Source: Minisyncoccota bacterium
Lineage (GTDB): Bacteria; Patescibacteriota; Minisyncoccia; JBAYJV01
Length of the DNA: 64,000 nucleotides
Direction: 5' to 3'
Assembly (NCBI GenBank): GCA_041664925.1
Contig: JBAYJV010000001.1
Location: 293,262-357,261, forward strand
Position 1 is the stretch's first letter. Each line of letters opens with the position of its first letter. Positions 281-53,565 of this stretch are shown piece by piece. Both the position numbers and the translations under genes were made by a program. Below the pieces are notes generated by a model. That model saw nothing but the letters and a program-made list of their open reading frames with translations. It did not search any database and was not told the origin of the DNA.

Positions 281-467
281 ACTAAATTTATTCTGAATTT
301 TAAAGTCTAAAGTCCCGTACCAGAATCGCTATGTCGTGGTTTTTGTATTTAAACAGATTTGGTACATAAACGAGAAGATTCGGTACGGGATATAAGAAAC
401 TCTAGATTCGTAAACTCACTAAGAATTTCTAATATCTAAAGTTTATAGTTTATGGTCTAAAGTTTTT

Positions 468-3497: not shown

Positions 3498-3989
3498 ATG
3501 GAATTCAAAACAAACAATTTCGAAGAAACAGTGAACTTGGGTAAAAAATTGGTCCTAGATTTTTTAGAATCGGAGCAGCACAGAAAATCAGCGCTTGTTA
3601 TTGTGCTTGAAGGCGATCTGGGAGCAGGAAAAACTACTATTACCCAAGGATTCGCTCAAGCATTGGGCGTCGAGAGCTGGATTAAAAGCCCAACCTTTGT
3701 TCTTATGAGAGAGCACAAGATTAGTCCGGAATACGAAGTACGAAGTTCGAAGTACGAAGAAAAAAACAGTAAACCAAATCGCTTAACTACCCTAATTCAT
3801 ATTGATTGCTACAGAGTTGATAATCCAGACGCCTTAATTGAAATCGGGATTAAAGATATATTAGCTGATCCTCAAAATATTGTTTTTATTGAATGGGGAG
3901 AAAAAATCGCAAAATTACTGCCAAAAAATATCATAAGAATAAAAATTAAACATTTAAAAGAAGATCAAAGAAAAATTACAATAAATTAA
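3498..3989 (+). CDS. tsaE: tRNA threonylcarbamoyladenosine biosynthesis ATPase TsaE (YjeE), with in-frame low-complexity insertion
   Basis: P-loop LEGDLGAGKTTITQGF, SPTF...HIDCYRV motifs of TsaE; contains 4x heptamer TACGAAG array (3732..3759) encoding extra EYEVRSSKYEE segment. Confidence 0.75.
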   Translation: MEFKTNNFEETVNLGKKLVLDFLESEQHRKSALVIVLEGDLGAGKTTITQGFAQALGVESWIKSPTFVLMREHKISPEYEVRSSKYEEKNSKPNRLTTLIHIDCYRVDNPDALIEIGIKDILADPQNIVFIEWGEKIAKLLPKNIIRIKIKHLKEDQRKITIN

Positions 3990-4118
3990 ATCCGAAAATC
4001 GAAACAATATTTAATCTCGAAATCATAAATTCTAAACGGTTTAAAACATTAAATATTAGAATTTTGAATTTGTTTCGAATTTCGTGCTTCGAATTTCAAA
4101 TTTGTTATAAGGTTTAGT

Positions 4119-5111
4119 ATGAAACGTTTGCTCATTATCGACTCTCACGCTCTTCTTCACCGCGCTTATCATGCGCTTCCTCCTTTAACTAATTCAAAAG
4201 GAGAACCCATAGGCGCAATCTACGGTTTCGCCTCAATCCTTGTTAGCAATATTGCCCAGCTAAAACCAGATTACCTTGTTGCCTGTTTTGATTTGCCTAA
4301 GCCAACTTTAAGGCATCAAAAATTTGCTGATTACAAAGCAAAAAGACCGAAAGCGCCAGATGATTTGATTGTTCAGTTTAAGCTTGTAAAGCGTTTCTTA
4401 AAAAATCTCGATATTCCTATTCTTGAAAAAGAAGGTTATGAGGCTGATGATGCGATTGGAACTGTTATCGCTCAAGTTACTCAAAAATATCCTGATATGG
4501 AAAATATTGTTTTAACAGGAGACTTAGATACGCTCCAGCTTATTAATAAAAATACCAAAATTCTCACTCCTAAACGCGGTATATCTGATCCGATTCTTTA
4601 TGACGAGAAAGAACTTGATAAAAAATACCCTGGACTTGAACCAAAGCACATTGTTGAATTTAAAGGATTAAAGGGAGATCAGTCTGATAATATTCCTGGC
4701 GTTCCCGGTATAGGAGAAAAAACTGCCCTAACGCTCATAAGGCGGTTTGGCAATCTTGAAAAACTTTATGAAACCGTAGAAAACGAAAAAGAAATTGAAC
4801 AATTGAAGAAAGAAAAAATTCTATCGGTTTCTGTTGTTAAAAAACTTAAGGAAAACAAAGACTTGGCCTTCTTTAGTCGAGAACTGGCAACAATTTATCG
4901 AGATGTACCCATTGAGTTCAACCTTAAAAACGCTTCCTGGGAACCAAATCCCGTTAGAGTTGAAAATGCCTTAATGGATTTTGGTCTTCGTTCTTTAGTA
5001 AGAAGATACCAAGCGATATCACAGGGAATTGAACTACCAAAATTTGAAAAAAAACCAGAAGAAAAAAAGGAAGAAAAAAAAGAACCCGTAAGGCAGCATT
5101 CTTTATTTTAA
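4119..5111 (+). CDS. stand-alone 5'-3' exonuclease (Pol I N-terminal/FEN-like domain)
   Basis: LIIDSHALLHRAYHALP start, acidic metal sites (EADD, TGDLD), helix-hairpin-helix GVPGIGEKTA; 330 aa without polymerase domain. Confidence 0.8.
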   Translation: MKRLLIIDSHALLHRAYHALPPLTNSKGEPIGAIYGFASILVSNIAQLKPDYLVACFDLPKPTLRHQKFADYKAKRPKAPDDLIVQFKLVKRFLKNLDIPILEKEGYEADDAIGTVIAQVTQKYPDMENIVLTGDLDTLQLINKNTKILTPKRGISDPILYDEKELDKKYPGLEPKHIVEFKGLKGDQSDNIPGVPGIGEKTALTLIRRFGNLEKLYETVENEKEIEQLKKEKILSVSVVKKLKENKDLAFFSRELATIYRDVPIEFNLKNASWEPNPVRVENALMDFGLRSLVRRYQAISQGIELPKFEKKPEEKKEEKKEPVRQHSLF

Positions 5112-13926: not shown

Positions 13927-14976
13927 ATGCCTACAGAATTTATTAAAGATAAAAAAATTTGGGACAAGCTTATCACAAACCAAGACTCAGGCTTTATGCA
14001 GTCTTGGGATTGGGGAGAATTTAAAGAAAAATTGGGCCATAAGATTTGGCGCATGGCCATTAAGGGAAACGGTCAATGCCAGTATGCTCAAATTATTAAA
14101 CATCGATTGCCTTTGAAAAAATCATACTTTTATATTCCCCAAAGCCCAATTTTTAACTCTCAACTTTCAACTATCAACCATCAACCAATGGAATTATTGA
14201 TTAAGGACATCTGTAAATTAGCAAAGAAAGAAAAGGCGGTATTTATAAAGTGGGAACCGCTTGCCGAATCAAGCGCCGATATTAAAAGATTGAAAAAAGC
14301 TGGATTTGTTGAATCAAAAAACATTCAACCGAAAGATACCTTAGTTTTAGATCTTTCACAAACAGAAGAAGAAATTTTCCAAAACTTCCATAGCAAACAT
14401 AGATACAATATAAAACTGGCTCAAAAAAAAGGCATTCAAATAAAAATCCTTGATTCTGATGGTGAATTTGAAGAATTTTACGGACTGGTAAAGAAAACTG
14501 ACGAAAGAAAGCATATAAAATCATTTCCCAAACAATATTACAAAGAGTTATTCGAGCTTGCTAAAAAATCTGCAAAAACCAAGACATCGCCTGATCTTGA
14601 AATTAGGTTTTTTGGAGCCTATTTTGGCAAAAACATCGCTGCTGGGCTAGTTTTGGTTGTTTGGAATGATAAGGCCATGTATCTTATTGGGGCAAACGAC
14701 TATGAGTATCGACAATGCATGGCTCCCCACCTGCTCCAGTGGGAAACCATTAAAGAGTCTCGAAAGATTGGAGCAAAAGAATATGATTTTTGGGGTATAA
14801 TTAGAAAAGAGGATTTTGAGTCAGATAAAGAATTTGAAAAACACCCGTGGGCAGGCATCACAAGGTTTAAAATAGGTTTTGGTGGGAAAACTGTACAGTT
14901 TGAAAAAACTTTTGACTATATTGTCTCGCCTTTTTGGTATAAAATCTATAAACTAGCGATAAAGCTTAAAATGTAA
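13927..14976 (+). CDS. FemAB-family peptidyltransferase (peptidoglycan interpeptide bridge formation, FemX/MurM-like)
   Basis: FMQSWDWGEFK start and overall FemAB (COG2348) pattern; adjacent to murE; contains in-frame heptamer-like array 14148..14176. Confidence 0.65.
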   Translation: MPTEFIKDKKIWDKLITNQDSGFMQSWDWGEFKEKLGHKIWRMAIKGNGQCQYAQIIKHRLPLKKSYFYIPQSPIFNSQLSTINHQPMELLIKDICKLAKKEKAVFIKWEPLAESSADIKRLKKAGFVESKNIQPKDTLVLDLSQTEEEIFQNFHSKHRYNIKLAQKKGIQIKILDSDGEFEEFYGLVKKTDERKHIKSFPKQYYKELFELAKKSAKTKTSPDLEIRFFGAYFGKNIAAGLVLVVWNDKAMYLIGANDYEYRQCMAPHLLQWETIKESRKIGAKEYDFWGIIRKEDFESDKEFEKHPWAGITRFKIGFGGKTVQFEKTFDYIVSPFWYKIYKLAIKLKM

Positions 14977-15044
14977 AGCGTAAAACGCAAAACAACAACT
15001 TAAAACTCAAAACTGTTTTGCATTTTCCTGCTTATTGTGGGCAA

Positions 15045-19104: not shown

Positions 19105-19722
19105 ATGCCAACAAAAAAATTTATTATTACAAGACGCCAAAAAGAGATTCTAGACTTTATCTTGGATTTCATGGATGAAAACGGTTACAGCCCAAGCCTA
19201 CGCGTTATTGGAAAGGCCATGGGGCTTTCGTCGCCTTCTTCTGTCCATGAACAAATAAAGAAGCTTCAGGAAGCTGGCTTTCTTGAAAGAGAAGATGATT
19301 CCAGATCATTTCTCCCATCAGGAAAAGCCTTAAATTTAACCGAGAAGTTTTCTGTGCCAGTTCTGGGAACTATTGCTGCCGGCTCACCAATTCAGGTCTT
19401 TGAATACCAAGAAAACTTGATGATTCCTAAAACATTAATTTCAAACGGCCACACTGATCTTTTCGCTCTTGAAGTTAAGGGAAATTCGATGATTGAAGAA
19501 GGTATTATGGATGGCGACTATGTTATTTGCGAACCGTCACAAAATGTTAAAAATGGCGATGTCGTAGTCGCTCTAGTTAATGGCACGGAAGTAACTTTAA
19601 AGAAATTCTATAAAGAGAAACGCTGGATTCGCCTTATGCCGGCAAATTCAAAAATGCGTCCTATTTTATCGCGAAATGTCTTGGTTCAAGGGGTTGTGAA
19701 AGCCGTGTTTAGAAAATACTAA
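19105..19722 (+). CDS. lexA: LexA repressor (S24 self-cleaving peptidase)
   Basis: N-terminal winged HTH (TRRQKEILDFI), Ala-Gly cleavage region, Ser (GNSM) / Lys (LKKF) dyad. Confidence 0.85.
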   Translation: MPTKKFIITRRQKEILDFILDFMDENGYSPSLRVIGKAMGLSSPSSVHEQIKKLQEAGFLEREDDSRSFLPSGKALNLTEKFSVPVLGTIAAGSPIQVFEYQENLMIPKTLISNGHTDLFALEVKGNSMIEEGIMDGDYVICEPSQNVKNGDVVVALVNGTEVTLKKFYKEKRWIRLMPANSKMRPILSRNVLVQGVVKAVFRKY

Positions 19723-19840
19723 ATTTTAATTTTCAACTATCAATCTTCAATTATCGACCAATTGTAGGATTGATTTTTTTAATTCAATTTTATCTAGATT
19801 TGTGCTAATCTATAAATAAGATTTTGTAAAATTACGAAAA

Positions 19841-24696: not shown

Positions 24697-25985
24697 GTTT
24701 ATTTGAAAAAGTAATTTTCTACGCTACGATTTTTCTTGTCCCGTTTAATATCAAAAAATTCGTAGCTAATCCTTTATCTATTGAGCCCTTAACTGAATTT
24801 GGCGCTCTTTTTTTATACCTATCAGACATATTAATCTTGATTCTTTTGGTGTTATGGCTCCATAAGAGTATTTCTCAAAAGAGACTGAAAATAAAAAAAC
24901 TGACTGCCATGATTGTTCCATTTCTATTTTTTGGTCTTTTTTTGACTTTATCTTTATTTTCTAGTAAAAATTTAACTATTAGTTTTTATTTCTTGGTTAA
25001 AATTTTACTTCTAATTAGTTTTTTTTATTATATTAGGTTAAAAATTAAAAAAGAAGAACTAGTAAATATTTATAAAATAATCTTTATCGGTGGTATTGTT
25101 CAGTCGTTAATTGCGCTAGGACAATACATTAAACAGGGTAGTTTGGGCTTAAGGTATTTGGGGGAAAGTGTTATTGCGCCAAATCTTTATGGCGTTGCCA
25201 AAGTTGATTTTCTTGGTCAGAAAATTGTCAGAAGTTACGGAACTTTTTCTCATCCTAATATTCTTGCTGTCTTTCTTTTGATTTCTATCTGTTGCATCCT
25301 GTGGCTCGTTTTAAAACACGGGAAACCCATTTGCCTTATCGGATTACCTATTATTGTTTTAGGTCTTACCTTGACCTTCTCACGCACTACAATTTTTTTG
25401 GGATTAATCTTTGTTCTGTTTTTTCTTTTTTATTCATGGTTAAAAGCTAAGCAATTAAAATTATCTCAAAAAATGGTTATTGAAACAGCTTCTGTTTTCT
25501 TTGTATTTACTGTAGCTTTTGTTATTATTTTTGCTCCCTTAATGATTCAGCGGTTTAATATTCAAAAAGAAGAACAAGCCGTTTCTTTGAGGGTTTTTTA
25601 CAATAATGCTGCTTTTAATATAATAAAAAAATCGCCATTAACGGGCGTAGGTTTAGGTAATTTCATTATTAAACTCAAAGAATCTTATCCTGGTCTTTCC
25701 TCCTGGCAATATCAGCCAGTTCACAATATTTATCTTTTGGTATTTTCTGAAATTGGTATTTTTGGGATTGTCGCCTTTTTATCTGTTTTATTTCTGATTT
25801 TTAAAAATTGTTTAAAGTCTAAAATTTATGGTTTAGATTTAGTAGTTTTTAGTGGCTTAGGAGTTGTTTTTTTGGCCATTGGTCTTGTTGATCACTTTTT
25901 CTTCACTATCAATCAAGGAATATTGTTGTTCTGGTTGATTTTGGGAATAATTAGTAATAAAATTATATCAGTTCCTGAAAAGTAA
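24693..25985 (+). CDS. O-antigen ligase / Wzy-type polymerase-like membrane protein (ATGA overlap with upstream stop; track ORF starts 24627)
   Basis: polytopic, Wzy_C-like loop with GTFSHPNILAVFL. Confidence 0.55.
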   Translation: MSLFEKVIFYATIFLVPFNIKKFVANPLSIEPLTEFGALFLYLSDILILILLVLWLHKSISQKRLKIKKLTAMIVPFLFFGLFLTLSLFSSKNLTISFYFLVKILLLISFFYYIRLKIKKEELVNIYKIIFIGGIVQSLIALGQYIKQGSLGLRYLGESVIAPNLYGVAKVDFLGQKIVRSYGTFSHPNILAVFLLISICCILWLVLKHGKPICLIGLPIIVLGLTLTFSRTTIFLGLIFVLFFLFYSWLKAKQLKLSQKMVIETASVFFVFTVAFVIIFAPLMIQRFNIQKEEQAVSLRVFYNNAAFNIIKKSPLTGVGLGNFIIKLKESYPGLSSWQYQPVHNIYLLVFSEIGIFGIVAFLSVLFLIFKNCLKSKIYGLDLVVFSGLGVVFLAIGLVDHFFFTINQGILLFWLILGIISNKIISVPEK

Positions 25986-26091: not shown

Positions 26092-26125
26092 GCGCCTAAA
26101 AGCGCTGCTTTTTTTATTCTATATT
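26092..26125. terminator. bidirectional terminator (CAGCGC-ctaaaa-GCGCTG + T7)
   Basis: hairpin flanked by A8 and T7. Confidence 0.55.
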
Positions 26126-26157
26126 CTAACTTCCAACTTCTAGCTTCTAGCTTCTAA
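26118..26157. repeat. heptanucleotide tandem array (CTTCTAG/CTTCTAA/CTTCCAA, about 5 units) in 3' UTR of dciA-like gene
   Basis: period-7 repeats directly visible. Confidence 0.6.
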
Positions 26158-26462
26158 CGCGCCACCTTTACTTTTATTTCCTTAATTAAAGAACCAATCA
26201 ATACTCGGTTGGTTTTGTCTTTTATTTCATCCTGATAAAATCTCAGTTCTTGCGCCAGATAACTATTGGCACATTTAACATACAGTACCGATCCTCTGAA
26301 TTCAAACTTCATATCCTGATCTAAGACGCATTTCTCAAAACCTAACAACTTCTCAATAACTTTTCTTGCTTCCTTAAAAACTTCAATTCTTTCAAGTCCT
26401 CTTTTAAACCTCGGATCTTTTTTTACTTTATTAATAGCATAATTTATACTGCTGAAAGCCAT
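26154..26462 (-). CDS. DUF721-family protein (DciA-like candidate replicative-helicase operator/loader), adjacent to dnaN
   Basis: 102 aa, position immediately downstream of dnaA-dnaN, C-terminal pattern LYVKCANSYLAQEL...RVLIGSLIKEIKVKV resembling DUF721. Confidence 0.45.
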   Translation of the reverse strand: MAFSSINYAINKVKKDPRFKRGLERIEVFKEARKVIEKLLGFEKCVLDQDMKFEFRGSVLYVKCANSYLAQELRFYQDEIKDKTNRVLIGSLIKEIKVKVAR

Positions 26463-29232: not shown

Positions 29233-29523
29233 AAACGAAGGATAACATCTTTAAGGTTATTTTAGCACGGAATCTTTAAATGCAATCTTTATCAACAAAT
29301 GCGTGAATAATGCTGTTTTAGGGGATTAACCTGCATTTTTTGTTGATAACCTGTGTAAAACTCCTTAATAACATCATTATTCTATATCTAACCCACCTCC
29401 AATTGCAATAGATACGCAAAATCAGAAATTCTTACCTAATCTAAAAAACACTTGAGTGTTTTGGGTGGTGACATCAAAACTAAAATGATAAAATAAGAAC
29501 ATGCTTAATTAATAATTTTTAAA
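29233..29523. promoter_or_regulatory. dnaA upstream region with two inverted one-mismatch DnaA boxes (TTATCAACA)
   Basis: 29289-29297 TTATCAACA and 29341-29349 TGTTGATAA. Confidence 0.45.
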
Positions 29524-30792
29524 ATGACAGAGCCAAATTTAGAAAAACAAGAAGCACTAGAAGATAAAAAACCACAAATCGACAAAGAATCATCTGATAA
29601 TGAGTGGACAGACATGGAAATTAAACAAAAAGAATTTATAAACAAAGTTACTGCCGCTAATCTGGACTTATCGGCAGATCAGGCGTCTGAAAAATTGGTA
29701 GCGCTTGAGAAAAAATATGACTGTCAACTTTTCAGAGTTATTTATGGAGAGGGACCACATAAAGAGCTAACAGTTAGGCGCAAAAAATTATCAATTTACA
29801 GAGAATTAAATATTATTTCCGATGAAGAAATAACAATATTAGAAAAGCTGGAAGCGGATTTTTCAAAAATAACCAAAGAAATTTGCACAGCAACAGGCGA
29901 TGATCCAGAAGAAACTCTCAAAAACATTGATTCTATTCTTGAATACCAAATGGCCAAGGATTTATCTGAGGCCAAAGAAATTTTGATTAACGGACCAATT
30001 ATTGAAGGATTTGAAGAAACCAAGGACCATCAAATGCCCGATGAATCAGTGCGCCAATTTTTAAAAGATGCTTTCGGTTTGGAGGCCTTAAAAAAAGCTA
30101 AGGTTGCTCGAGTGACCAAGGATGATCAATACATGATTTTTCTTGGTTATAATTTTCAATACGGAGACAAGGGGGCTAAGTTGGTTAAACAAGGCATTGC
30201 AGATTGGGATGGTTATGATCACACAAGATTAATTCTTAAAAGCAAAGAAGATTATCTTAAGGCAGCTATGTTTTTAGAAGAAACTGACAATCCAGATCGG
30301 CTTGAACACGCATTTAAAGTTCGAGCATCATCGGGAAACCCTGGGGGTTTTAGTATTATTCGGCTGCGAAGTTTTGGTGTTGAGAAATCTTCAGAGCTTG
30401 ATTTTTTGACAGACACAACAGAATTTGACAATGAAGACGATAGAATGCGAGCGTTTATGTTGGGGGTAATAGCGCATGAGATAGCACACGGTTATGAAAA
30501 ACAAGAGAAGGAAGGAATTTTTGACGAATACAAGAGAATTATTGAAGAGGAAAATAGTTATATTAGGTCGCAATATGTCAGCGATTATGTGCTTAAACAT
30601 AAAGAAAGATACGGAAGTGATCCGCAGGCAATTTTTCGCGAAGACTTTGCAGAAGCAGTGAGAATTTATATTACTAATCCAGAATACCTTCAGCAAAATT
30701 ATCCAAGAAGGTTCGCTTTTATTAACCAGAAATTTCCTTTTATCAAGGCAGGTGCAATTGGTGTGGCGATAAAGAATATGAGAAAGAAGTAG
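29524..30792 (+). CDS. hypothetical acidic protein with HExxH (VIAHEIAHGYE) putative zinc-metallopeptidase motif
   Basis: single HEIAH motif, no family recognised; divergent from dnaA. Confidence 0.4.
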   Translation: MTEPNLEKQEALEDKKPQIDKESSDNEWTDMEIKQKEFINKVTAANLDLSADQASEKLVALEKKYDCQLFRVIYGEGPHKELTVRRKKLSIYRELNIISDEEITILEKLEADFSKITKEICTATGDDPEETLKNIDSILEYQMAKDLSEAKEILINGPIIEGFEETKDHQMPDESVRQFLKDAFGLEALKKAKVARVTKDDQYMIFLGYNFQYGDKGAKLVKQGIADWDGYDHTRLILKSKEDYLKAAMFLEETDNPDRLEHAFKVRASSGNPGGFSIIRLRSFGVEKSSELDFLTDTTEFDNEDDRMRAFMLGVIAHEIAHGYEKQEKEGIFDEYKRIIEEENSYIRSQYVSDYVLKHKERYGSDPQAIFREDFAEAVRIYITNPEYLQQNYPRRFAFINQKFPFIKAGAIGVAIKNMRKK

Positions 30793-30878
30793 AAGTTTAT
30801 ACAATATTCAATCTTAATAAATCAAATAAAACAAAAAAACACACTGATTAATAGCGTGTTTTTTTTGTTTCTATGTTT

Positions 30879-31706
30879 TTAGTTTAATTTGAAAAGCGTT
30901 TTTGCATTTTGGGTGGTGACTTGAGCAACTTCTTGAAAACCAATGCCTTTTATTTCCGCAATCCTTTCCGCGACATATTTTACATACAGTGGCAGATTTT
31001 TTTTGCCTCTGAATGGTACAGGCGCAACATAAGGACAATCAGTTTCCACCATCAATTTTTCTAGCGGGGTTTCTTTTATAATTTCATCGTATGCCTTAGT
31101 AAAAGTGATGACGCCTGTAAAAGAAATTAAAAATCCTAGCTCAATCATTTCTCTGGCATCTTCTTTCGTTCCAGAAAAGAAATGAGCAGTGCCGCGAAGC
31201 GGTATTTCGAATTTCGAATTTCGAATTTCGAATTTAAGGATCTTTACAAGATCCTTCCATGCTTCTCGGCAGTGGATAATAATCGGAAGATTGAGTTTTT
31301 GAGCAAACAAAACCTGTTGTTTAAAAGACTTCTTTTGAGCTTCTTTGTCTTCTTCTGTTTTTGCGTAAGTATAGTCTAGTCCGATTTCGCCAATCGCAAC
31401 GACTTTTTTGCTTTTTGCGAGTATCTCATATTTTTTGGCATCAAATTCTTCGGGACGAGATTTAAAACTTGGTTCGACTTCATTGACATCGACTTGGTTG
31501 GGAATAGCGTGGATGGGGTGAAGGCCGATGGCGGCCCAAACGCCAGTTTTGTATCTTTCGGCAATTTCAACGGCGCGCTTGCTGGTTTCATATTGCGAGC
31601 CGACATTGATTAATTGAATATCATTTTTAAAACATTGATCAATAACCTGGTTATGATCATCTTTAAAGGCGTTGAAATTGAGATGGGCGTGGGTGTCGAT
31701 TAACAT
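30879..31706 (-). CDS. tatD: TatD-family metal-dependent DNase/hydrolase (ATG start at 31706; track used upstream TTG at 31721) with in-frame heptamer-repeat insertion
   Basis: MLIDTHAHLNF start, TIM-barrel His/Asp/Glu metal ligands (IGEIGLDY, IIHCREA); 4.5x ATTTCGA array 31204..31236. Confidence 0.85.
   Translation of the reverse strand: MLIDTHAHLNFNAFKDDHNQVIDQCFKNDIQLINVGSQYETSKRAVEIAERYKTGVWAAIGLHPIHAIPNQVDVNEVEPSFKSRPEEFDAKKYEILAKSKKVVAIGEIGLDYTYAKTEEDKEAQKKSFKQQVLFAQKLNLPIIIHCREAWKDLVKILKFEIRNSKFEIPLRGTAHFFSGTKEDAREMIELGFLISFTGVITFTKAYDEIIKETPLEKLMVETDCPYVAPVPFRGKKNLPLYVKYVAERIAEIKGIGFQEVAQVTTQNAKTLFKLN
31204..31236. repeat. 4.5-unit tandem heptanucleotide repeat (ATTTCGA) inside tatD coding sequence
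   Basis: directly visible; encodes KFEIRNSKFEIP. Confidence 0.7.
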
Positions 31707-31953
31707 AAACTTAAAGCGCAAAGCTTAAAGCGAAAAACAACAACTTAAAACTTAAAATTGAGAATAGTAGCAACAAACATCTTTTAGTCATTCTGAGTGC
31801 AACGAAGAATCCTGGGATCTTTCGGTCGCCTTGGGCGACCTCAAGATGACATTACTTTTATTTTAAAGGTTTTTAGGGAAAAAGAAAGCCGTGAGCTTGT
31901 ATTTTTTCAATAAAAATATAAAATGAAAATATGCAAAAAGGAGGAATAAAAAT

Positions 31954-32325
31954 ATGAACCTAGAACAAGAATCAATCTCGCCAGAACAGTCACAAGAAAA
32001 AAAAGAACCGATTTTTGATCAAGAAAAATTTAGGTCACTATGTGCAATATGGAAAGAAGAAGAGACAAAAATGCACAGTTGTATGAAGGCCTCTTTCATA
32101 AAAGGAGCAAAAGAACATGAAGGGAAAGCAAAAGAAGCATATGACCAATTATTGGAAATAGCAGAAGCAGCCCTAAAGGAAAGCAATGGAGATAGAAAAA
32201 TTTTTAACGAAATAACAAGAGCAATTTTAAAAATAGAATCCTATGGGGGGGGATCAGAAACCATTGATCTTACAGATTTTCTTGAAGATTTGGTTTTGAA
32301 GATTGTTTCAGAAAGGAGCGAATAA
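31954..32325 (+). CDS. hypothetical acidic protein (123 aa)
   Basis: strong RBS AAAGGAGGAATAAAAAT-ATG; followed by terminator; immediately upstream of radical SAM gene. Confidence 0.45.
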   Translation: MNLEQESISPEQSQEKKEPIFDQEKFRSLCAIWKEEETKMHSCMKASFIKGAKEHEGKAKEAYDQLLEIAEAALKESNGDRKIFNEITRAILKIESYGGGSETIDLTDFLEDLVLKIVSERSE

Positions 32326-46321: not shown

Positions 46322-47734
46322 TTATGTTTTCTCTAATATTTTAATCATACCCTTATTCGCATCGACTTCAACCAAATCACCATCTTTAAGTATTTGAGTT
46401 GCAATTTTTGTACCAATAATACAGGGGATTCCTAATTCTCTACTAACTATAGCTGCATGACACAATATTCCACCTTCATCTGTGATAATGGCACCGGATC
46501 GCTTAATCACTCCTATAAGATTAGGCGTTGTCATGGTTGTAACCAAAATTTCTCCATTCTGTAATTCTTTAGCCATTTCTGTGCTTAGGATTATTCTGAC
46601 TCGTCCTTTGTATGTGCCAGAATTAGCTACTGTTCCCTTGATTTCTTCAAAATAGGTTTTTTCTTCTTCAAACGGAAGTTCACTATACGAAACAATTCCA
46701 CCTATAAGGATATTTGTGAAGTATTGTTTTCGTTTTATTATATCAATTTCAGTTTTGTTTTTAAAAAGATTATCGATTTCTAATACATTATACCAAACGA
46801 TATCCTCAAATTTAATATTGAATTTATTGGCAATTGCCCTAAGTAACGATCTAATGCGGTATTGTCCTAGTGTAAGCACTGTAATTCTGTTCATTCTGAA
46901 AATCATATAATCTTGGAGTAATTCGGATATCTCTATAATGTCTTTTGGCAGGGAACTTATAGATTCTATGTACTTGGCTTTTTTCTCTTCTTGATTTGCC
47001 GTTAAATTATTTAGTTCTTCGGCAGGATTTTTAATATTTTCTATTGTTTTTAAGAAATAATCATCGTCATATGGTTCGCTCAATAGGTGAGTGGTAAGAC
47101 CCATATATCCAAAATTCGCACTATGTTGTTTTATTTGCTTATCAATATTTACTCCTGATCGTTTAAGGATAGCTATCTCTAGTAAATCTTTTTGTTCTTG
47201 AAAAAAATCACTATTTTCCTGAACAGTAGTTAGAACTCTAAAAATTTTATCTTGTTTTATTTGACTAGCGTCTTTTAAATAAATATTTATTTTATTCTTA
47301 AGCCCTTCCGTTAATATTTGTTCTGGAGCGAAAACGGTATGCATAAAAGGAGAGAAGGAATAAAAATCTTTCTTAAAAAGATCCCAATATTTCAATAACT
47401 TACTACTACTCACACTCATATTTGATTTACTGATGACCTCCGTAGTATTGAGAATCTTTTTTAACCTTTTCTTACCTTCCAGCAAATGTTCTTTCATAAA
47501 TTCTAAGGGGTTTTTGTTTGCCAAAAAAGCCTCTTTGAGATTTCGCTTGCTCTCTAAGTTCTGAAGAATAGAACAAAGCTTCTTTTTGTCTTCTACTCTA
47601 GACACAATATCAAAATTAACACCAACTAATTTTGGTATTTCTTTACTCATTCCTTGGCTAATTATGTCTAAAGTTAGGCCTGTTAGAGGCCTAGAAACTA
47701 CCTTAAACCACTTAGAATCATCGTATTTTTCCAT
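46322..47734 (-). CDS. PEP-utilizing-enzyme mobile (phosphohistidine swivel) domain protein, paralog A (likely start MEKYDD at 47734; track ORF extends to 47827)
   Basis: C-terminal GGILCHAAIVSRELGIPCIIGT...DGDLVEVDA; divergent ~370-aa N-terminal region. Confidence 0.65.
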   Translation of the reverse strand: MEKYDDSKWFKVVSRPLTGLTLDIISQGMSKEIPKLVGVNFDIVSRVEDKKKLCSILQNLESKRNLKEAFLANKNPLEFMKEHLLEGKKRLKKILNTTEVISKSNMSVSSSKLLKYWDLFKKDFYSFSPFMHTVFAPEQILTEGLKNKINIYLKDASQIKQDKIFRVLTTVQENSDFFQEQKDLLEIAILKRSGVNIDKQIKQHSANFGYMGLTTHLLSEPYDDDYFLKTIENIKNPAEELNNLTANQEEKKAKYIESISSLPKDIIEISELLQDYMIFRMNRITVLTLGQYRIRSLLRAIANKFNIKFEDIVWYNVLEIDNLFKNKTEIDIIKRKQYFTNILIGGIVSYSELPFEEEKTYFEEIKGTVANSGTYKGRVRIILSTEMAKELQNGEILVTTMTTPNLIGVIKRSGAIITDEGGILCHAAIVSRELGIPCIIGTKIATQILKDGDLVEVDANKGMIKILEKT

Positions 47735-49157
47735 ATTTTCTATGAATAATTTTAATTTTACCCTTATTTGCATCGACTTCAACCAAATCACCATCTTTAA
47801 GTATTTGAGTTGCAATTTTTGTACCAATAATACAGGGAATATTAAACTCTCTGCTGATTATAGCTGCATGACACAATATTCCACCTTCATCTGTGATAAT
47901 GGCACCAGCCTTTTTAACAGCGCCAATTAAGTTAGCCGTAGTCATTGATGCAACCAAAACCTCTCCTTTTTTGAATGATTTAATCTTATCAAGACCTGTT
48001 ATTATTTTTACGTAACCAGTGTATTTTCCTGTCTTTGCTATTGATCCTGAAAATTCATTTCCGGAGACATTATCAGAAGTTTTTTCAACTTCTTCATAAT
48101 AGATTTTCCCATTTATTAAACTGGATACGAAAGATTTTTTTCTGGCTTCAACATTAGTCTTTTTAGGACGAATAAAAAGATTATCTATTTCTGGTACTGT
48201 GTACCAAATAATATCTTCAAATTTGATATCAAATCTTTTACCTATCTCTCTGGTAAGTTTTTTAACATAGTGTAATCCGACATTCATTCCTTCAGCTCTT
48301 TCCGTTCTAAAGATTGTATATTCCTGAAGAAGCTCAGCGAGTTTTACAATATCTTTTGGTATAGATTTTGCGAAACTATTGTATCCAGAAAGTATTTCTT
48401 TTTTATTTTTTTCTAATTTGATTAGTAAGTCTTTTGGATTTTTTATCTCATTTATGATTTCAAGAAAATGTTTTCTATCATACGGTTCGCTTGAAAGATG
48501 AGCGGTTATCCCCATATTTCCGAATTTTTTAATATGATTCTTTAATCTGTTCTCTATGTTTTTATTTTTTCTTATAAGAATACCTATTTCCAAAAGATCT
48601 TTCTGTTCTAGGTAGAAAATACTATCTTTTTTAATTGTTGTTAACAGCCTAAAGTAGTTTTCTTTATCTTTTGGAGAACTTTTCTTAAAATAAGCATCAA
48701 TCTTACTTTTCAGTCTGTTTGTAAGTATTTCTTCTGGAATAAAAGGGATATGAATAAAAGGACAGAAAGCGCAATAAGTTTTTTTAAACAGAATCCAATA
48801 ATTTTCTAGTTTTTCAATACTAACGTTCAGATTGTAACTATAAATTTTTTTTCCTACCCGTAGAGTTTTTTTTGTTCTTTTTCTTCCGATTTTAAGATGT
48901 TCTCTAAAAAAACTATAACCATTTTCGTGATTTTCAAAGATTTTTACCAATCTTTCTCTGCTTTCTTTCCCTTGATAGAGGGATAGGTCATTATCGTTTA
49001 TTGATTTTTCACATTTTAAATCTAATGTTGTGCCAGTAAGTCTTGGCATCTCTTCGTTTATGCCTTGAGCAACCAAACTAAAAGTTAAAATCGTGGCTGG
49101 TCGCGCAACCACCTTAATCCATTCCATATTTTCTGTAGGATTAATTTTCTTTTTCAC
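47718..49157 (-). CDS. PEP-utilizing-enzyme mobile domain protein, paralog B
   Basis: C-terminal GGILCHAAIISREFNIPCIIGT...DGDLVEVDA; 3' 150 nt about 92% identical to paralog A. Confidence 0.65.
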   Translation of the reverse strand: MKKKINPTENMEWIKVVARPATILTFSLVAQGINEEMPRLTGTTLDLKCEKSINDNDLSLYQGKESRERLVKIFENHENGYSFFREHLKIGRKRTKKTLRVGKKIYSYNLNVSIEKLENYWILFKKTYCAFCPFIHIPFIPEEILTNRLKSKIDAYFKKSSPKDKENYFRLLTTIKKDSIFYLEQKDLLEIGILIRKNKNIENRLKNHIKKFGNMGITAHLSSEPYDRKHFLEIINEIKNPKDLLIKLEKNKKEILSGYNSFAKSIPKDIVKLAELLQEYTIFRTERAEGMNVGLHYVKKLTREIGKRFDIKFEDIIWYTVPEIDNLFIRPKKTNVEARKKSFVSSLINGKIYYEEVEKTSDNVSGNEFSGSIAKTGKYTGYVKIITGLDKIKSFKKGEVLVASMTTANLIGAVKKAGAIITDEGGILCHAAIISREFNIPCIIGTKIATQILKDGDLVEVDANKGKIKIIHRKYGKIR

Positions 49158-50682
49158 TTTTTAATATTTTTACAACACCTCTATCTGCATCAACTTCAAC
49201 AAGATCGCCATCTTTAATGACTTTTGTAGCGTTTTTTGTGCCAATAATGCAGGGTTTTTTGAGCTCTCTGGCAATAATAGCAGCATGGCAAGTCAATCCT
49301 CCTTCATCAGTTACAATTGCTCCGGCCAATCGCATTACAGGCACGAAATCAACTGTAGTTGATTGAGCTATAAGAATTTCTCCTTTTTCCATTTTATTCA
49401 TTTCAGCGGTTGATAAAATTAACCTAGCAATGCCTCGAATTTTTCCTTTAGCGCCGATCTGGCCCGTAATTGTATCTATTTTTTCTGTTTCTTTTTTAAA
49501 TTGATCGAAATTGCTTTTTACATAATCTATTTCTTCTTGAACAAGCTCCCTGATACCATATTCAACGGAAAGGATTAAATTATATCCATTTTTTCTTTGC
49601 TGGTATTTTGTTTTTAACCCTTCTAATGATACTTTGCCCAAAATGCCATCTTTTATTTCTTCTGGCGAAAGACAATAAACCTGTTGCCAATTTTCCAAAT
49701 CAAGAATTTTTGCGATTGTATCAAAAAATGGTCTTACCAAGAAACCAACGTGAGAAAAAATACTCTTTCGATATTCAGCCAAAACAGTCCCCAGGCGCAT
49801 TGCTAAAATTATATTTTTTAATTTTTCAGACATTGGTAAATCACCAAATAATTTATCGCGTTGCGATAATATTTCTTTTCTGTGTGTTTTTTTAGCAGTG
49901 ATTTGTTCTTGGCAATCTCCATTATTGATGTATTTTTTAATGTCTTCGATAAATTTTGGTTCAGGAATAGGTTCGTCGATAAAATTTACCGTTATCCACG
50001 CTGAATCATTCATTAATTGATTGAGTTTTTCTTTAAAAGGAGTACCAGATAAGATGCTATTAAAATTGTTTCTGGTTTTTTTCATTTCTTCTTGTATCCA
50101 AGAAGATAATTCAAGTACGGCAATTTCTTGTTTAAAAGCTGGGGTTTCTTCATCCGGCGTAACCAATATATTAATATTTGCATCAATTTCACTAGGATCA
50201 ATATTTTTTAGTTCTTCTTTGGCAATAATAGGAGCTAACCTAGACAAATCCCAATTTAGCATTGATGTGATCATTAACCCCAAGGACAGAGCAATGTGCG
50301 ATTCGCAATATTGATCTAATTTTTTGATTAAATCATTTTTATCAGAAATCTCTTTGATTTTATTTAATTCATAAGCAATCTTAAGGAATTGCTCGCCTCG
50401 ATCTAAGAATTTTTGCTTGAGATTTTTACCTAAAAAACCATAAGGATCTTTAATAGATTCTGTTATTAAAAAATCAAGAACCTTTTCGTCGGAAATTTTA
50501 GTATCAAAAATAGCGCAACGGGTTCCTTCAGAAATCCATAATTCTTCCAGTGGCGGGACCTTCCAACTGTCAGCTCCATACGTAAAACCAACAGCATCTA
50601 AGTAACGCTGAAAAAATGCAAAATTGCGCGTAAGCTGATAATTCCAATTTTCTGGACTAAAAATTTTTAAATCTATAGGCAT
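49141..50682 (-). CDS. PEP-utilizing-enzyme mobile domain protein, paralog C
   Basis: C-terminal GGLTCHAAIIARELKKPCIIGT...DGDLVEVDA. Confidence 0.65.
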   Translation of the reverse strand: MPIDLKIFSPENWNYQLTRNFAFFQRYLDAVGFTYGADSWKVPPLEELWISEGTRCAIFDTKISDEKVLDFLITESIKDPYGFLGKNLKQKFLDRGEQFLKIAYELNKIKEISDKNDLIKKLDQYCESHIALSLGLMITSMLNWDLSRLAPIIAKEELKNIDPSEIDANINILVTPDEETPAFKQEIAVLELSSWIQEEMKKTRNNFNSILSGTPFKEKLNQLMNDSAWITVNFIDEPIPEPKFIEDIKKYINNGDCQEQITAKKTHRKEILSQRDKLFGDLPMSEKLKNIILAMRLGTVLAEYRKSIFSHVGFLVRPFFDTIAKILDLENWQQVYCLSPEEIKDGILGKVSLEGLKTKYQQRKNGYNLILSVEYGIRELVQEEIDYVKSNFDQFKKETEKIDTITGQIGAKGKIRGIARLILSTAEMNKMEKGEILIAQSTTVDFVPVMRLAGAIVTDEGGLTCHAAIIARELKKPCIIGTKNATKVIKDGDLVEVDADRGVVKILKSEKEN

Positions 50683-51084: not shown

Positions 51085-52247
51085 GAGCCAAGGATTTTTT
51101 TAAGAGCCTCAACTTTGTCTGTTTTTTCCCAAGGAAGATTTAATTCTGGTCTGCCAAAATGACCATAACAAGCAACTTGGCGATAAAGTGGTCGCCTTAA
51201 TCCCAGGTGATGAATAATGGCTCCTGGTCTTAAGTCAAAAACTTTTTTGACTGCGCCTAAAATCTTTTTATCAGAGATTTTGCCGGTATCAAAAGTGTAA
51301 ACATCAATAGCCAATGGCTTTGCTATGCCGATGGCATAAGCAATTTGAACCTGACACTTATCAGCCAGATTGGCTGCAACAATGTTTTTTGCTACCCAGC
51401 GGGCAGCGTAAGAGCCTGTTCGATCAACTTTTGTCGGATCTTTTCCCGAAAAACAGCCTCCGCCATGAGAACCAACTCCGCCATAGGTATCAACAATAAT
51501 CTTTCTGCCCGTTAAGCCCGTGTCTGCGGCTGGGCCGCCCTTAACAAATCTGCCAGTTGGATTTACAAGAAATTTAGTTTCTTTATCAATAAGTTTTTTT
51601 GGCAAGATTGGTAACATAACTTTACTAATAATGTCTTTTTTTAGATCGGAAAGTTTGAATTCTGGATCATGTTGCGCAGAAACTAAAACAGTCTGAATTC
51701 TTGCTGGCAAACCATTCACATATTCAACTGTTACCTGAGATTTTCCATCTGGCCTCAAATATTTAATTTCTCCTGATTTTCTTACTTCAGATAATTTTTT
51801 GACCAAACGATGAGCTAAAACTATTGGAAGAGGCATTAGTTCTGGCGTTTCTTTCATAGCATAACCATACATCATACCTTGATCGCCTGCGCCGATATTG
51901 AGATCGTTAGGATCATCTACTCCCTGGGCAATATCCCGAGATTGTTCCTGAATAGCACAACTGATACCGCAGGTCTCCCAATCAAAACCAATGGAAGAAT
52001 TATTGTAACCGATATCCTTAATAACAGATCTAGTAATTTTAGGAATATCAACGTAACAATTCGTTGTCATTTCCCCGGCAATCATAACCATGCCATTGGT
52101 TAATAAAGCTTCCATTGCAACTCGCCCCATCGGATCTTGCCTCATAACATTGTCCAATATAGCATCAGAAATTTGATCAGCCATCTTATCGGGATGGCCT
52201 TCGGTAACTGACTCAGAAGTAATCAAATAGTCTCGATTATTTTTCAT
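51081..52247 (-). CDS. metK: S-adenosylmethionine synthetase
   Basis: [28 protein letters not shown], canonical MetK motifs. Confidence 0.95.
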
Positions 52248-53565
52248 CGTTGAGTAATTTAATTAATTTATTATTTAAATCTCCGATATTTATTCTTGTT
52301 TGTTTCATAGAATCTCTTTCTCTGATAGTAACTGATTTATCGTTAATAGTTTCAAAATCAATCGTTATGCAAAACGGCGTACCGATTTCATCTTGTCTGC
52401 GATAGCGCTTGCCAATACTTTGAGTTTCATCATACTCGCAGATGAATTTATTTTTTAGGTCATCAAGAATTTGCTTAGCAATTTCAGTTAATTCCAACTT
52501 TTTAGATAGAGGCAAAATCGCTATTTTTATAGGTGATAACCAATAGGGGAATTTCATAACAATCCTTGTTTCTTCTTTTTCATCTGCCGTTGGGGCTTTT
52601 TCTTCGTGATAATGCTCGCACAAAACAGCCAAGACCGTTCTGTCAACGCCCAAGCTTGGCTCAATCACATGAGGAACTGTTTTTGTGCCGGTTTCAGGAT
52701 CTGTGTAGGAAAATCCATGGTTTTTTAAATCAAAATCTGTTCTATAAGCAAGGCCATAAAGTTCTTTTTTTCCAAAAGGAAACCGATATTCAATATCAAT
52801 GGTTTTTTTGGAGTAATGAGCTAATTCTTTTTTTTCAACAACACATTCATTAATATTTTCTTTACTAAGCCCAAGCAAACTCATCCAGTCCCTTAATTCA
52901 GAAAGCCACTCATCAAAATACTTTTGCCAATCTTTTTCGGAAACAAAATACTCAATTTCCATCTGTTCAAATTCGCGGGTTCTGAAAATAAAATTTCCCG
53001 GCGTAATTTCATTACGAAAAGCCTTACCAACTTGAGCAATTCCAAAAGGTAATCGTTTTCTTGTAGAATCTACAATATTCTTAAAATTAACGAAGATGCC
53101 TTGAGCTGTCTCAGGCCTTAAGTAGGCGATATTACCATCTTCTTCGCCCTTGGGGCCAATAAAAGTCTTAAACATCAAATTAAACTTGGTTGGTTTGGTA
53201 AGCTCATTATTTTTGCAGCTTGGACAAATGGATTTTTCTAATTCATCTTTTTTGAAGCGCATGTGGCATTTCTTGCATTCAACCAATTCATCAGCAAACC
53301 CTGCGCCCAAATGACCAGAAGCTTTCCAAACTTCCGGATTCATAATTAAAGCGGCGTCGATTCCAACCATATCTTGTCTGTCTTGGACAAACTTTTTCCA
53401 CCACATTTGTTTTATATTGTTCTTGATTTCAACTCCAAGCGGTCCATAATCCCAAGTATTTGCCATACCTCCATAAATTTCCGATGACGGAAAAATAAAC
53501 CCTCTTCTTTTTGAAAGTGAAATAATTTTTTCAATTGATTTTTCCATAATTTTAGCGCTCAACAC
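52237..53565 (-). CDS. glyQS: glycyl-tRNA synthetase (alpha2 dimeric type)
   Basis: [17 protein letters not shown]...YGPLG, class II motifs, 442 aa. Confidence 0.85.

What the first reader, a model, noticed from the sequence alone, without database searches (positions are those of the whole stretch)
31204..31236. Heptanucleotide tandem repeat (ATTTCGA x4.5) inside tatD coding region
A perfect 4.5-copy 7-mer array lies within the TatD ORF (minus strand), encoding LKFEIRNSKFEIP between conserved TIM-barrel segments. As with tsaE, single-unit slippage would shift the frame: a potential contingency locus, or a tolerated loop insertion created by the same repeat-generating process.
Basis: seen in the sequence. 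Interest (0 to 1): 0.5.

Follow-up and report, generated by a model that had tools for sequence, protein, structure and literature searches.

The report
In-frame heptamer microsatellite in TatD loop
A perfect 7-base repeat sits in frame in a dispensable surface loop of a TatD hydrolase gene of a tiny Paceibacteria genome; it looks like a tolerated, fast-evolving microsatellite, one of many 7-base arrays in this lineage, and nothing suggests an on/off switch.

Summary
(ATTTCGA)x4.6 is perfect at 31204-31235, inside tatD (30879-31706, minus strand), and far beyond chance.

It encodes K158-I168: the end of helix alpha5 and the coil before strand beta6. By TIM-barrel topology this is the face opposite the catalytic site. 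The loop varies widely in length among homologues.

All eight fetched orthologues with at least 68% TatD identity carry a heptamer array at this site. Units and copy numbers differ, and every allele is in frame. A syntenic genome at 59% identity has no array.

Arrays built from stop-containing units carry a variant unit exactly where the stop would fall in frame. So array structure is set at the DNA level and filtered by selection.

Two tatD alleles are identical outside the loop but only 70% identical in a ~114-nt patch centred on the array.

Period-7 arrays are over-represented in the window, and units are shared between dispersed loci.

No out-of-frame or copy-number variant was found among roughly 50 contigs of two sister lineages. 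Variation at this exact array could not be tested.

Verdict: a tolerated, rapidly turning-over coding microsatellite within a clade-specific heptamer-array proliferation resembling cyanobacterial STRR repeats. The contingency-locus reading is unsupported.

The parts
31204..31235 (-). Focal array. Sense strand (AAATTCG)x4.6, plus strand (ATTTCGA)x4.6, perfect. Encodes K158-I168 of TatD. Each unit contains the palindrome TTCGAA.
   Evidence: ssDNA hairpin -12.5 kcal/mol, z = -3.3.
30879..31706 (-). tatD CDS (275 aa plus stop), TatD-family metal-dependent hydrolase. Metal ligands H6, H8, E107, H145, H175 and D223 are invariant.
   Evidence: AF2 model pLDDT 89.9. Foldseek TM 0.83-0.90 to 2GZX, 1J6O and 1YIX.
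31707..31760 (-). Heptamer-periodic leader directly upstream of the tatD ATG (sense: ...AGTTTTA AGTTGTT GTTTTTC GCTTTAA GCTTTGC GCTTTAA GTTT-ATG). It is 83% identical over 54 nt to 14962-15015. Heptamer-periodic leaders occur at the same place in L001, L004, L006, L007, L008 and L010.
   Evidence: (D8).
30833..30865 (-). Terminator-like hairpin plus T-run just after the tatD stop codon.
4073..4103 (+). Imperfect array with the same plus-strand unit as the focal array (TTTCGAA x4.4), about 15 nt upstream of the start of the gene at 4119. The orthologous site in L028 carries ATTAGAA units.
   Evidence: (D17).
3732..3759 (+). tsaE in-frame array TACGAAG TACGAAG TTCGAAG TACGAAG (peptide YEVRSSKYE) in a hypervariable loop. 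It is orthologous to the array in L028 and absent in the close relative P0130.
26115..26158 (-). Array (TTAGAAG/CTAGAAG/TTGGAAG) x6 that starts at the dciA stop codon and ends before a terminator hairpin. Positionally conserved in L004, L007 and L008.
25812..25837 (+). In-frame array in the Wzy_C gene (TTTAAAG TCTAAAA TTTATGG TTTAGAT, peptide LKSKIYGLD). It belongs to the same family as the tatD-loop array of L006/L008. The third unit has TAT where TAA would be in frame.
435..465 (+). Non-coding array TCTAAAG TTTATAG TTTATGG TCTAAAG. An 18-nt stretch matches the L006 tatD-loop array and the L007 Wzy array exactly. Orthologous array present in L028.
14962..15015 (+). Heptamer-periodic segment at the FemAB stop codon and following intergenic region. 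Dispersed partner of the tatD leader.
14154..14187 (+). In-frame array (TCAACTn) in the FemAB-family gene. Partner array at 19720-19755.
   Evidence: (D5).

Best explanation
The array is an in-frame heptanucleotide microsatellite. It occupies the solvent-exposed alpha5-beta6 connection of a functional TatD-family hydrolase.

Shown: an array has sat at this codon position in all fetched members of a Paceibacteria clade (TatD identity 68% or more). A syntenic relative outside that clade has a plain loop (KFYKPSTKRAG).

Shown: the array turns over far faster than the rest of the gene. The unit sequence changes in all units together, copy number changes, and whole ~100-nt patches are replaced. Selection lets through only alleles that keep the frame and lack in-frame stops.

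Inferred: the window's perfect (AAATTCG)4.6 is the stop-free variant of a TTAGAAA-type unit, recently homogenised by replication slippage or unequal exchange. The palindromic TTCGAA core may help by forming slipped hairpins.

Inferred: the peptide has no specific role, and the locus is not used as an on/off switch.

Shown: it is one of many period-7 arrays in coding loops, leaders and 3' UTRs. These mark a clade-specific expansion of heptameric repeats of the kind known from cyanobacteria (STRR), Xanthomonas and Beggiatoaceae.
For: Location: the array codes residues 158-168. These are the end of helix 150-161 and the coil 162-171 before strand 172-175, and the 161-170 block has pLDDT 70. The loop is 5 aa longer than in 1J6O and 2GZX. 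His145-His175 spacing is 30 here and ranges 22-50 (mode 28) in 118 homologues.

Same-site arrays in all eight clade orthologues: AAATTCG, TTAGAAA/TTCGAAA, TACGAAR, TTTARAG/TCTAAAG, AAATTCA.

Empty site in syntenic L026, with no period-7 array in 20.8 kb.

Stop patching: in the L001 array TTAGAAA TTAGAAA TTCGAAA TTAGAAA, the C variant sits where TAG would be in frame. The Wzy array keeps TAT in its third unit, while GT->AC changed in all units between lineages.

Patch replacement: L004 and L007 tatD are 100% identical over 425 + 288 nt but 70% identical in the 114-nt loop patch.

Genome-wide signal: 11 period-7 TRF rows against 2.9 expected; 4 against 0 at high stringency; in 175 kb of the clade, period 7, 14 and 21 give 19, 11 and 5 rows.

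Literature: heptameric SSRs are over-represented in many bacteria, and polymerase slippage has been proposed as the cause (PMC4692102).
Against: Copy-number stability of this particular perfect array was not measured.

A perfect 32-nt tract implies recent expansion. Single-unit steps are out of frame, so growth needs 3-unit steps, compensated steps or conversion, and none of these was observed directly.

Unit sharing between dispersed loci and short-patch replacement suggest that something more than local slippage is at work.

A role for the peptide or for the nucleic-acid motif cannot be excluded by sequence analysis alone.
Confidence: 0.7

Rival explanations
1. Dispersed, actively copied repeat element. 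On this reading the heptamer arrays form an STRR-like family that is copied or converted between loci by a templated mechanism (ectopic gene conversion, template switching or an unknown enzyme). Coding loops such as the TatD one are merely permissive landing sites. The arrays may also serve as binding sites or as recombination hotspots.
For: Three identical-unit pairs among 11 window arrays against 0.12 expected, P = 0.003.

The L006/L008 tatD-loop array shares 18-20 nt exactly, including two unit variants in the same order, with the Wzy_C array (L007, L008, window 25812-25837) and with non-coding window 435-465.

There is a 54-nt pair at 83% identity: 14962-15015 and 31707-31760.

L012 has (AAATTCA)4.9 newly present in GlyRS, absent from the window orthologue, and the same unit in its own tatD loop.

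Stop-containing units persist in ORFs with only the in-frame copy patched.

Arrays coincide with the only divergent patches between L004 and L007.

The arrays are restricted to one clade.
Against: Each family has only 2-3 loci in 64 kb, and pattern searches for (TTAGAAR)2 and (TTCGAAW)2 were not enriched over shuffles.

The unit at a given site differs between lineages, so no fixed motif is conserved.

The inserts inside the L001 and L012 arrays are not repeated in the DNA available.

No candidate enzyme or binding protein was identified.

AT-rich composition and amino-acid constraints narrow the set of usable units, which makes some convergence plausible.
Confidence: 0.3
2. Phase-variable contingency locus. 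On this reading, slippage by +-1 unit switches TatD off and on in a subpopulation, as in NeuO of E. coli K1 or the heptanucleotide loci of Haemophilus influenzae.
For: The tract is perfect and its unit length is not a multiple of three.

+-1 or +-2 units truncate the protein before His175.

The tract can form a hairpin.

Coding heptanucleotide phase variation is an established mechanism (PMC13001214; PMC2651432).
Against: There are only 4.6 units, against 13-38 for hmw and 3-53 (mode 20) for neuO in those papers.

The array lies mid-gene in a conserved cytoplasmic hydrolase next to dnaA.

All nine orthologous alleles are in frame.

Sister arrays are imperfect and invariant across about 50 contigs and across 1.2% flanking divergence.

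Comparable arrays sit in essential genes (tsaE, GlyRS), where on/off switching is implausible.
Confidence: 0.07
3. Diversifying selection on the protein loop. On this reading the loop peptide interacts with a partner, inhibitor or phage factor, and its variability (unit change, patch import) is driven by selection on amino acids. The repeat is then only the raw material.
For: The loop is extremely divergent against a 100% identical backbone in L004 versus L007.

The loop is the most variable region across 118 homologues. One subfamily even carries a Cys-rich insert there.
Against: By TIM-barrel topology the loop is on the face opposite the active site.

The same turnover is seen in non-coding arrays such as the tatD leader, the dciA 3' UTR and the region after the T2SSE ATPase gene (window ORF 468-2114).

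The parallel GT->AC change in three codon phases of the Wzy array cannot be explained by selection on amino acids.
Confidence: 0.1

Closest known systems
Over-represented heptameric simple sequence repeats in bacteria: cyanobacterial STRR heptamers, Xanthomonas GGGAATC, Nostoc GGGGAYT (Mrazek et al. 2007 as cited in PMC4692102; Mazel et al. 1990, from my own knowledge)
   Same: Period-7 tandem arrays are specifically enriched over other periods. The same unit recurs at dispersed loci. Position is conserved between related species while length and sequence vary. Distribution is restricted to particular lineages. Polymerase slippage has been proposed as the origin.
   Different: Here the units are AT-rich, not G-rich, so no G-quadruplex is expected. 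The genome is very small: the longest contig carrying this protein is 433 kb. A large share of the arrays lie in frame inside conserved housekeeping proteins. Several unit families coexist. I found no report for CPR/Patescibacteria (0 papers).
TAACTGA direct repeats of Beggiatoaceae, Cyanobacteria and Bacteroidetes (PMC4679880)
   Same: Short heptamer arrays of 2-6 copies, often ending within a few nucleotides of a start codon or overlapping a stop codon. A few lie inside ORFs, at the periphery of the protein. Possible mobility has been discussed, with no mechanism known.
   Different: That system has a single conserved unit that gives stops in all frames in one orientation. Here the units vary, the coding arrays are stop-free or stop-patched, and they sit in internal loops.
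NeuO poly-heptad VNTR of E. coli K1 phage CUS-3, and the H. influenzae hmw and TonB-receptor heptanucleotide SSRs (PMC13001214, PMC2651432)
   Same: A heptanucleotide unit inside a coding sequence produces a 7-aa periodic peptide. The protein is full length only for repeat numbers in one residue class modulo 3.
   Different: Those tracts are long (typically 13-50 units), lie in the 5' end or promoter, sit in surface or host-interaction genes, and are demonstrably polymorphic with many OFF alleles. Here there are 4.6 units in mid-gene of a housekeeping enzyme, and no OFF allele was seen.
Genic tandem repeats that create disordered loops (for example in Borg elements; from my own knowledge, not checked here)
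   Same: Perfect nucleotide repeats inside ORFs add low-complexity surface segments. They evolve rapidly at the DNA level.
   Different: Units in those genic repeats are multiples of three. Here the unit is 7 nt, so the frame is kept only through constraints on total length.

Membership tests
TatD-family metal-dependent hydrolase (PF01026) | Full-length match to the family profile above the curated cut-off | tested here: met
   265.9 bits against a cut-off of 27, covering profile positions 1-253 of 253; 1J6O at E = 1.2e-51.
TatD-family metal-dependent hydrolase (PF01026) | TIM-barrel fold with the conserved metal ligands (HxH, Glu, His, His, Asp) | tested here: met
   pLDDT 89.9; TM 0.83-0.90 to TatD structures. 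H6, H8, E107, H145, H175 and D223 are invariant in alignment A1.
TatD-family metal-dependent hydrolase (PF01026) | Nuclease or hydrolase activity | not testable with these tools
   Needs biochemistry.
SSR-mediated phase-variable (contingency) locus | Perfect repeat tract whose unit is not a multiple of 3, placed so that unit gain or loss changes expression | tested here: met
   +-1 or +-2 units give truncated products of 183-191 aa.
SSR-mediated phase-variable (contingency) locus | Repeat-number polymorphism, including OFF alleles, among cells or strains | tested here: inconclusive
   This array has only one sequence available. Orthologous arrays show no copy-number or frameshift variants in about 50 contigs, but those arrays are imperfect.
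SSR-mediated phase-variable (contingency) locus | Tract long enough for high slippage rates (known heptanucleotide loci typically have 13-50 units) | tested here: not met
   4.6 units here, against the values in PMC2651432 and PMC13001214.
SSR-mediated phase-variable (contingency) locus | Gene class for which reversible loss is adaptive (surface, restriction-modification, host interaction) | tested here: not met
   The gene is a conserved cytoplasmic TatD next to dnaA in all relatives. Similar arrays occur in tsaE and GlyRS.
Dispersed heptameric tandem repeats (STRR-like, over-represented heptameric SSRs) | Period-7 arrays enriched relative to other periods and to shuffled sequence | tested here: met
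Dispersed heptameric tandem repeats (STRR-like, over-represented heptameric SSRs) | The same unit recurs at unlinked loci in one genome | tested here: met
   (P = 0.003). Copy number per family is low (2-3 in 64 kb), and searches show no wider enrichment.
Dispersed heptameric tandem repeats (STRR-like, over-represented heptameric SSRs) | Lineage-restricted distribution, with positional conservation but sequence and length variation between relatives | tested here: met
   (conserved positions). (absent in L026, L027 and the outgroups).
Dispersed heptameric tandem repeats (STRR-like, over-represented heptameric SSRs) | Predominantly intergenic location | tested here: inconclusive
   About half of the window arrays are non-coding. 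I did not measure the window's non-coding fraction, but non-coding DNA is a minority of the sequence (ORF list). The rest are in-frame coding arrays. This coding share looks higher than described for STRR or TAACTGA repeats.

The most novel reading that the evidence does not exclude
In this Paceibacteria clade the heptamer arrays are not passive microsatellites. On this reading they form a self-propagating, inter-locus-copied repeat system. It colonises transcribed regions, including the loops of essential proteins. Its unit preference is enforced at the DNA level, so that only in-frame stops get patched. It also creates recombination hotspots that drive ~100-nt allele replacements between strains. 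This would be a compact CPR counterpart of cyanobacterial STRRs, whose mechanism is still unknown.
Probability: 0.3. Interest if true: 0.65.

Novelty: new member of a known kind. Interest (0 to 1): 0.4.

Why it matters
Taken alone, the array is a harmless loop-coding microsatellite and would only matter for annotation: it is not a pseudogene or switch signal.

The context is more useful. It gives a clean natural series for a question about heptameric repeats that has been open since 1990, namely why period 7 and how one unit comes to occupy many loci. The series has four parts:
- an empty site;
- stop-patched arrays;
- a homogenised perfect array;
- patch-replaced alleles in otherwise identical genes.

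These very small CPR genomes make a complete census and gene presence/absence comparisons feasible. The series also shows how DNA-level repeat dynamics create and remodel protein surface loops in reduced genomes.

Tried and rejected
1. Strain or read-level copy-number variation of this array.
- The exact protein is not in the contig index.
- Its 90% cluster has a single member.
So this could not be tested.

2. Cluster members of sister proteins differ only by alternative start, truncation at a contig end or a 1-aa indel beside the array. None differs by repeat number.

3. Indels between strain pairs (L001/L002/L003, L008/L009, L010/L011) do not fall in the heptamer arrays listed by TRF for those loci.

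4. The ~40-60-nt inserts that interrupt the L001 and L012 arrays were tested as possible small mobile elements. No second copy exists in any fetched DNA.

5. The restriction-site idea: TTCGAA occurs 20 times against 21.7 expected, so it is neither avoided nor enriched outside the arrays.

6. Known RNA families: no Rfam hit at gathering score anywhere in the window.

7. Wider enrichment of (TTAGAAR)2 or (TTCGAAW)2 dimers: not above shuffles.

8. Assembly artefact: rejected, because same-site arrays occur in independent assemblies from ENA, JGI and NCBI.

9. The plus-strand ORF 31182-31379 (65 aa) across the array is treated as spurious. The unit is stop-free in all frames on both strands.

10. 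Donors of the L004 and L007 loop patches could not be assigned. The best patch identities were 0.79 to the P0006 (L010) lineage and 0.74 to the P0002 (L006) lineage, which is not decisive.

Full report
OBSERVATION

Window 31204-31235 is a perfect (ATTTCGA)x4.6 array with TRF score 64.

The array is well beyond chance. The best period-7 score in 50 Markov-2 shuffles was 37. At a stringent lag-match threshold, period 7 gives 4 segments against 0.0 expected, and periods 4-15 give 0-1.

The array lies in the minus-strand ORF 30879-31721. Orthologues show that the true start is the ATG at 31706 (MLIDTHAHLNF...). This gives a 275-aa protein with a full-length Pfam TatD_DNase match (E = 4.5e-79). It matches PDB TatD/YcfH structures at E = 1e-51. 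It is 100% identical to a protein annotated 'Candidatus Paceibacterota bacterium TatD family hydrolase', whose longest contig is 433 kb.

On the sense strand the array is (AAATTCG)4.6 and encodes K158 F E I R N S K F E I168.

WHERE IT SITS IN THE PROTEIN

An AlphaFold2 model built from 30 orthologues has mean pLDDT 89.9. It superposes on the TatD structures 2GZX, 1J6O and 1YIX with TM 0.83-0.90.

Residues 150-161 form a helix, 162-171 form a coil (the 161-170 block has pLDDT 70) and 172-175 form a strand ending in the metal ligand His175. The array therefore encodes the last turn of alpha5 and the alpha5-to-beta6 connection.

In TIM barrels the alpha-to-beta connections lie at the N-terminal ends of the strands, on the face opposite the catalytic site. 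This step is inferred from the established topology and the model's secondary structure.

The six metal and catalytic residues (H6, H8, E107, H145, H175, D223) are invariant.

The loop is 5 aa longer than in 1J6O and 2GZX. The spacing between His145 and His175 is 30 residues here. Across 118 Patescibacteria homologues it ranges from 22 to 50, with a mode of 28. This is a naturally length-variable site.

ORTHOLOGUES

I fetched the DNA of eight orthologues with 69-85% protein identity. All of them carry a heptamer array at the same place:
- (TACGAAR)x5 in L004 and L010.
- TTTAGAG TCTAAAG TTTATAG TTTAAAG in L006 and L008.
- A degenerate (nCGAAAC)-type array in L007.
- (TTAGAAA/TTCGAAA)x4 after a ~50-nt insert in L001.
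- (AAATTCA)x2, a ~40-nt insert, then x3 in L012.

Every allele is in frame.

L026 has 59% TatD identity and the same gene order (MetRS-tatD-dnaA-dnaN-dciA-Wzy). Its loop is plain (KFYKPSTKRAG) and it has no period-7 array in 20.8 kb.

The array is therefore ancestral to a clade and absent just outside it. The window, L001 and L012 share nearly the same unit and the same reading frame (KFEIRNSKFEI / LEIRNSKLEI / FNSKFKI). This suggests that the AAATTMR type is the older state at this site.

DNA-LEVEL DYNAMICS FILTERED BY SELECTION

Three observations show that array structure is set at the DNA level.

(i) In L001 the unit TTAGAAA contains TAG. The array reads TTAGAAA TTAGAAA TTCGAAA TTAGAAA, and the single C variant sits exactly where TAG would be in frame.

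(ii) The Wzy_C gene carries an in-frame array at a conserved position. Its unit is TTAAAGT in the window, L007 and L008, and TTAAAAC in L012 and L003. The GT->AC difference recurs in all units although they are read in three different codon phases. In both lineages the third unit keeps TAT where TAA would be in frame.

(iii) L004 and L007 tatD are 100% identical over 425 nt upstream and 288 nt downstream of the loop, but only 70% identical in a ~114-nt patch centred on the array. The heptamer-rich leader is the other divergent spot nearby.

My inference is that the window's perfect tract is the stop-free TTCGAAA variant, homogenised recently by slippage or unequal exchange. TTCGAA is palindromic, and the tract can fold into an imperfect hairpin (ssDNA -12.5 kcal/mol, z = -3.3). 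This may favour slippage. Because +-1 and +-2 units truncate the protein at 183-191 aa while +-3 units keep the frame, the viable states are 1.6, 4.6, 7.6 ... units.

GENOME-WIDE CONTEXT

TRF finds 11 period-7 rows in the window against 2.9 expected. It also finds excess period 14 (5 against 0.8) and period 21 (3 against 0.16). In 175 kb of non-redundant clade DNA, periods 7, 14 and 21 give 19, 11 and 5 rows with score 36 or more. L026, L027 and the outgroups give 0-1.

Arrays occur in:
- protein loops: tsaE, the FemAB-family gene, a DUF3048 gene, Wzy_C and tatD, plus GlyRS in L012;
- leaders ending at or near start codons: tatD and the gene at 4119;
- 3' UTRs: dciA and the T2SSE ATPase gene.

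Positions are conserved between species while units differ.

Units are shared between unlinked loci more often than expected. There are three identical-unit pairs among 11 arrays against 0.12 expected (P = 0.003), and one pair is the focal array with 4073-4103. There is also a 54-nt pair at 83% identity, 14962-15015 and 31707-31760.

The tatD-loop array of L006/L008 shares 18-20 nt exactly, including two unit variants in the same order, with the Wzy_C array and with a non-coding array at window 435-465. This points to some copying or conversion between loci. The signal rests on few loci, and dimer-pattern searches were not enriched.

TSAE

The tsaE array (TACGAAG TACGAAG TTCGAAG TACGAAG, peptide YEVRSSKYE) lies in a loop whose length is hypervariable among homologues. 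It is orthologous to a diverged array in L028. It is absent from a close relative, P0130, at 89% identity.

CONTINGENCY-LOCUS TEST

Coding heptanucleotide phase variation is real. Examples are neuO, with 3-53 units and 66% of genomes OFF, and the H. influenzae loci, with 13-38 units.

Here the tract has 4.6 units and lies mid-gene in a conserved cytoplasmic enzyme beside dnaA. All orthologous alleles are in frame. The P0008 and P0009 lineage arrays are identical across about 50 contigs from several sources, and across 1.2% flanking divergence. Those sister arrays are imperfect, so they are weak proxies. The decisive read-level test on this array could not be done.

I rate this reading at about 7%.

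COMPARISON WITH WHAT IS KNOWN

[quoted passage not shown] Polymerase slippage has been suggested as the cause, and the mechanism of dispersal is unknown.

The present case fits that kind. It differs in four ways:
- the units are AT-rich;
- several families coexist;
- a high share of the arrays are in-frame coding arrays in housekeeping genes;
- it occurs in a very small CPR genome, for which I found no report.

VERDICT

The 'tolerated loop insertion from a general repeat process' reading is supported and refined. The 'contingency locus' reading is not supported. The focal feature is ordinary in function. The clade-wide heptamer phenomenon around it is moderately interesting and worth a genome-scale census.

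Noticed in passing
window 29437-29472 and 30885-30920; ORF 29524-30792 (+): A 36-nt direct repeat (75% identity) duplicates the 3' end of tatD on the far side of a 422-aa ORF. That ORF has no Pfam match and contains an HEIAH motif. In L008 and L026, tatD is followed directly by dnaA, so this ORF looks like an insertion at the tatD-dnaA junction. L006 and L010 have a similar ~424-aa Pfam-less ORF there, together with a zeta-toxin gene.
   Followed up: partly
L004 8295-8669 versus L007; L004/L007 downstream of tatD: Two genomes that are near-identical over ~4 kb differ by presence or absence of a 124-aa ORF just upstream of tatD. They also have entirely different cargo downstream: an R-M/Schlafen-like/RadC cluster versus a zeta toxin. 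The tatD-dnaA neighbourhood is a variable island site.
   Followed up: partly
L001 10478-10544 and L012 10479-10533 (inside the tatD-loop arrays): The heptamer arrays of two lineages are interrupted by ~40-60-nt non-repetitive inserts. These inserts are translated as part of the loop. The L012 insert has hairpin potential (TTTCCCG...CGGGAAA). No second copy was found in the fetched DNA. From memory, this is reminiscent of small dispersed repeats that insert into heptamer arrays in Nostoc.
   Followed up: partly
TatD homologues P0058, P0064, P0066, P0069, P0079, P0090, P0093, P0097, P0110: A subfamily of Patescibacteria TatD proteins carries a Cys-rich insert in the same alpha5-beta6 loop (for example GACSSCAFGCPSSGAGG). 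It may be a small metal-binding knuckle.
   Followed up: no
window 31775-31870: The intergenic region between tatD and the divergent gene at 31954 contains an imperfect inverted repeat, GTCATTCTGAG...CTCAAGATGAC, around a GC-rich hairpin (GGTCGCCTTGGGCGACC). There is no Rfam match at gathering score.
   Followed up: partly
L012 1353-1386: A perfect (AAATTCA)x4.9 array lies in frame in the glycyl-tRNA synthetase-like gene of a relative. It adds 8 aa between two Cys pairs and is absent from the window orthologue (52237-53565, minus strand). The unit is the same as in that genome's tatD loop.
   Followed up: yes
L022 record title: The GTDB representative carrying the P0008-type tatD is titled 'uncultured Candidatus Saccharibacteria bacterium'. 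The window protein and its relatives are labelled Paceibacterota or Parcubacteria. This is probably a taxonomic mislabel of the MAG.
   Followed up: no
window 46323-46622 / 47734-48033 (and 49211-49242): Adjacent ~500-aa genes (46322-47827, 47718-49157, 49141-50682, minus strand) share 76-79% identical 300-nt and 67-nt segments at a 1411-nt spacing. This is a tandem paralogue array and is unrelated to the heptamers.
   Followed up: no
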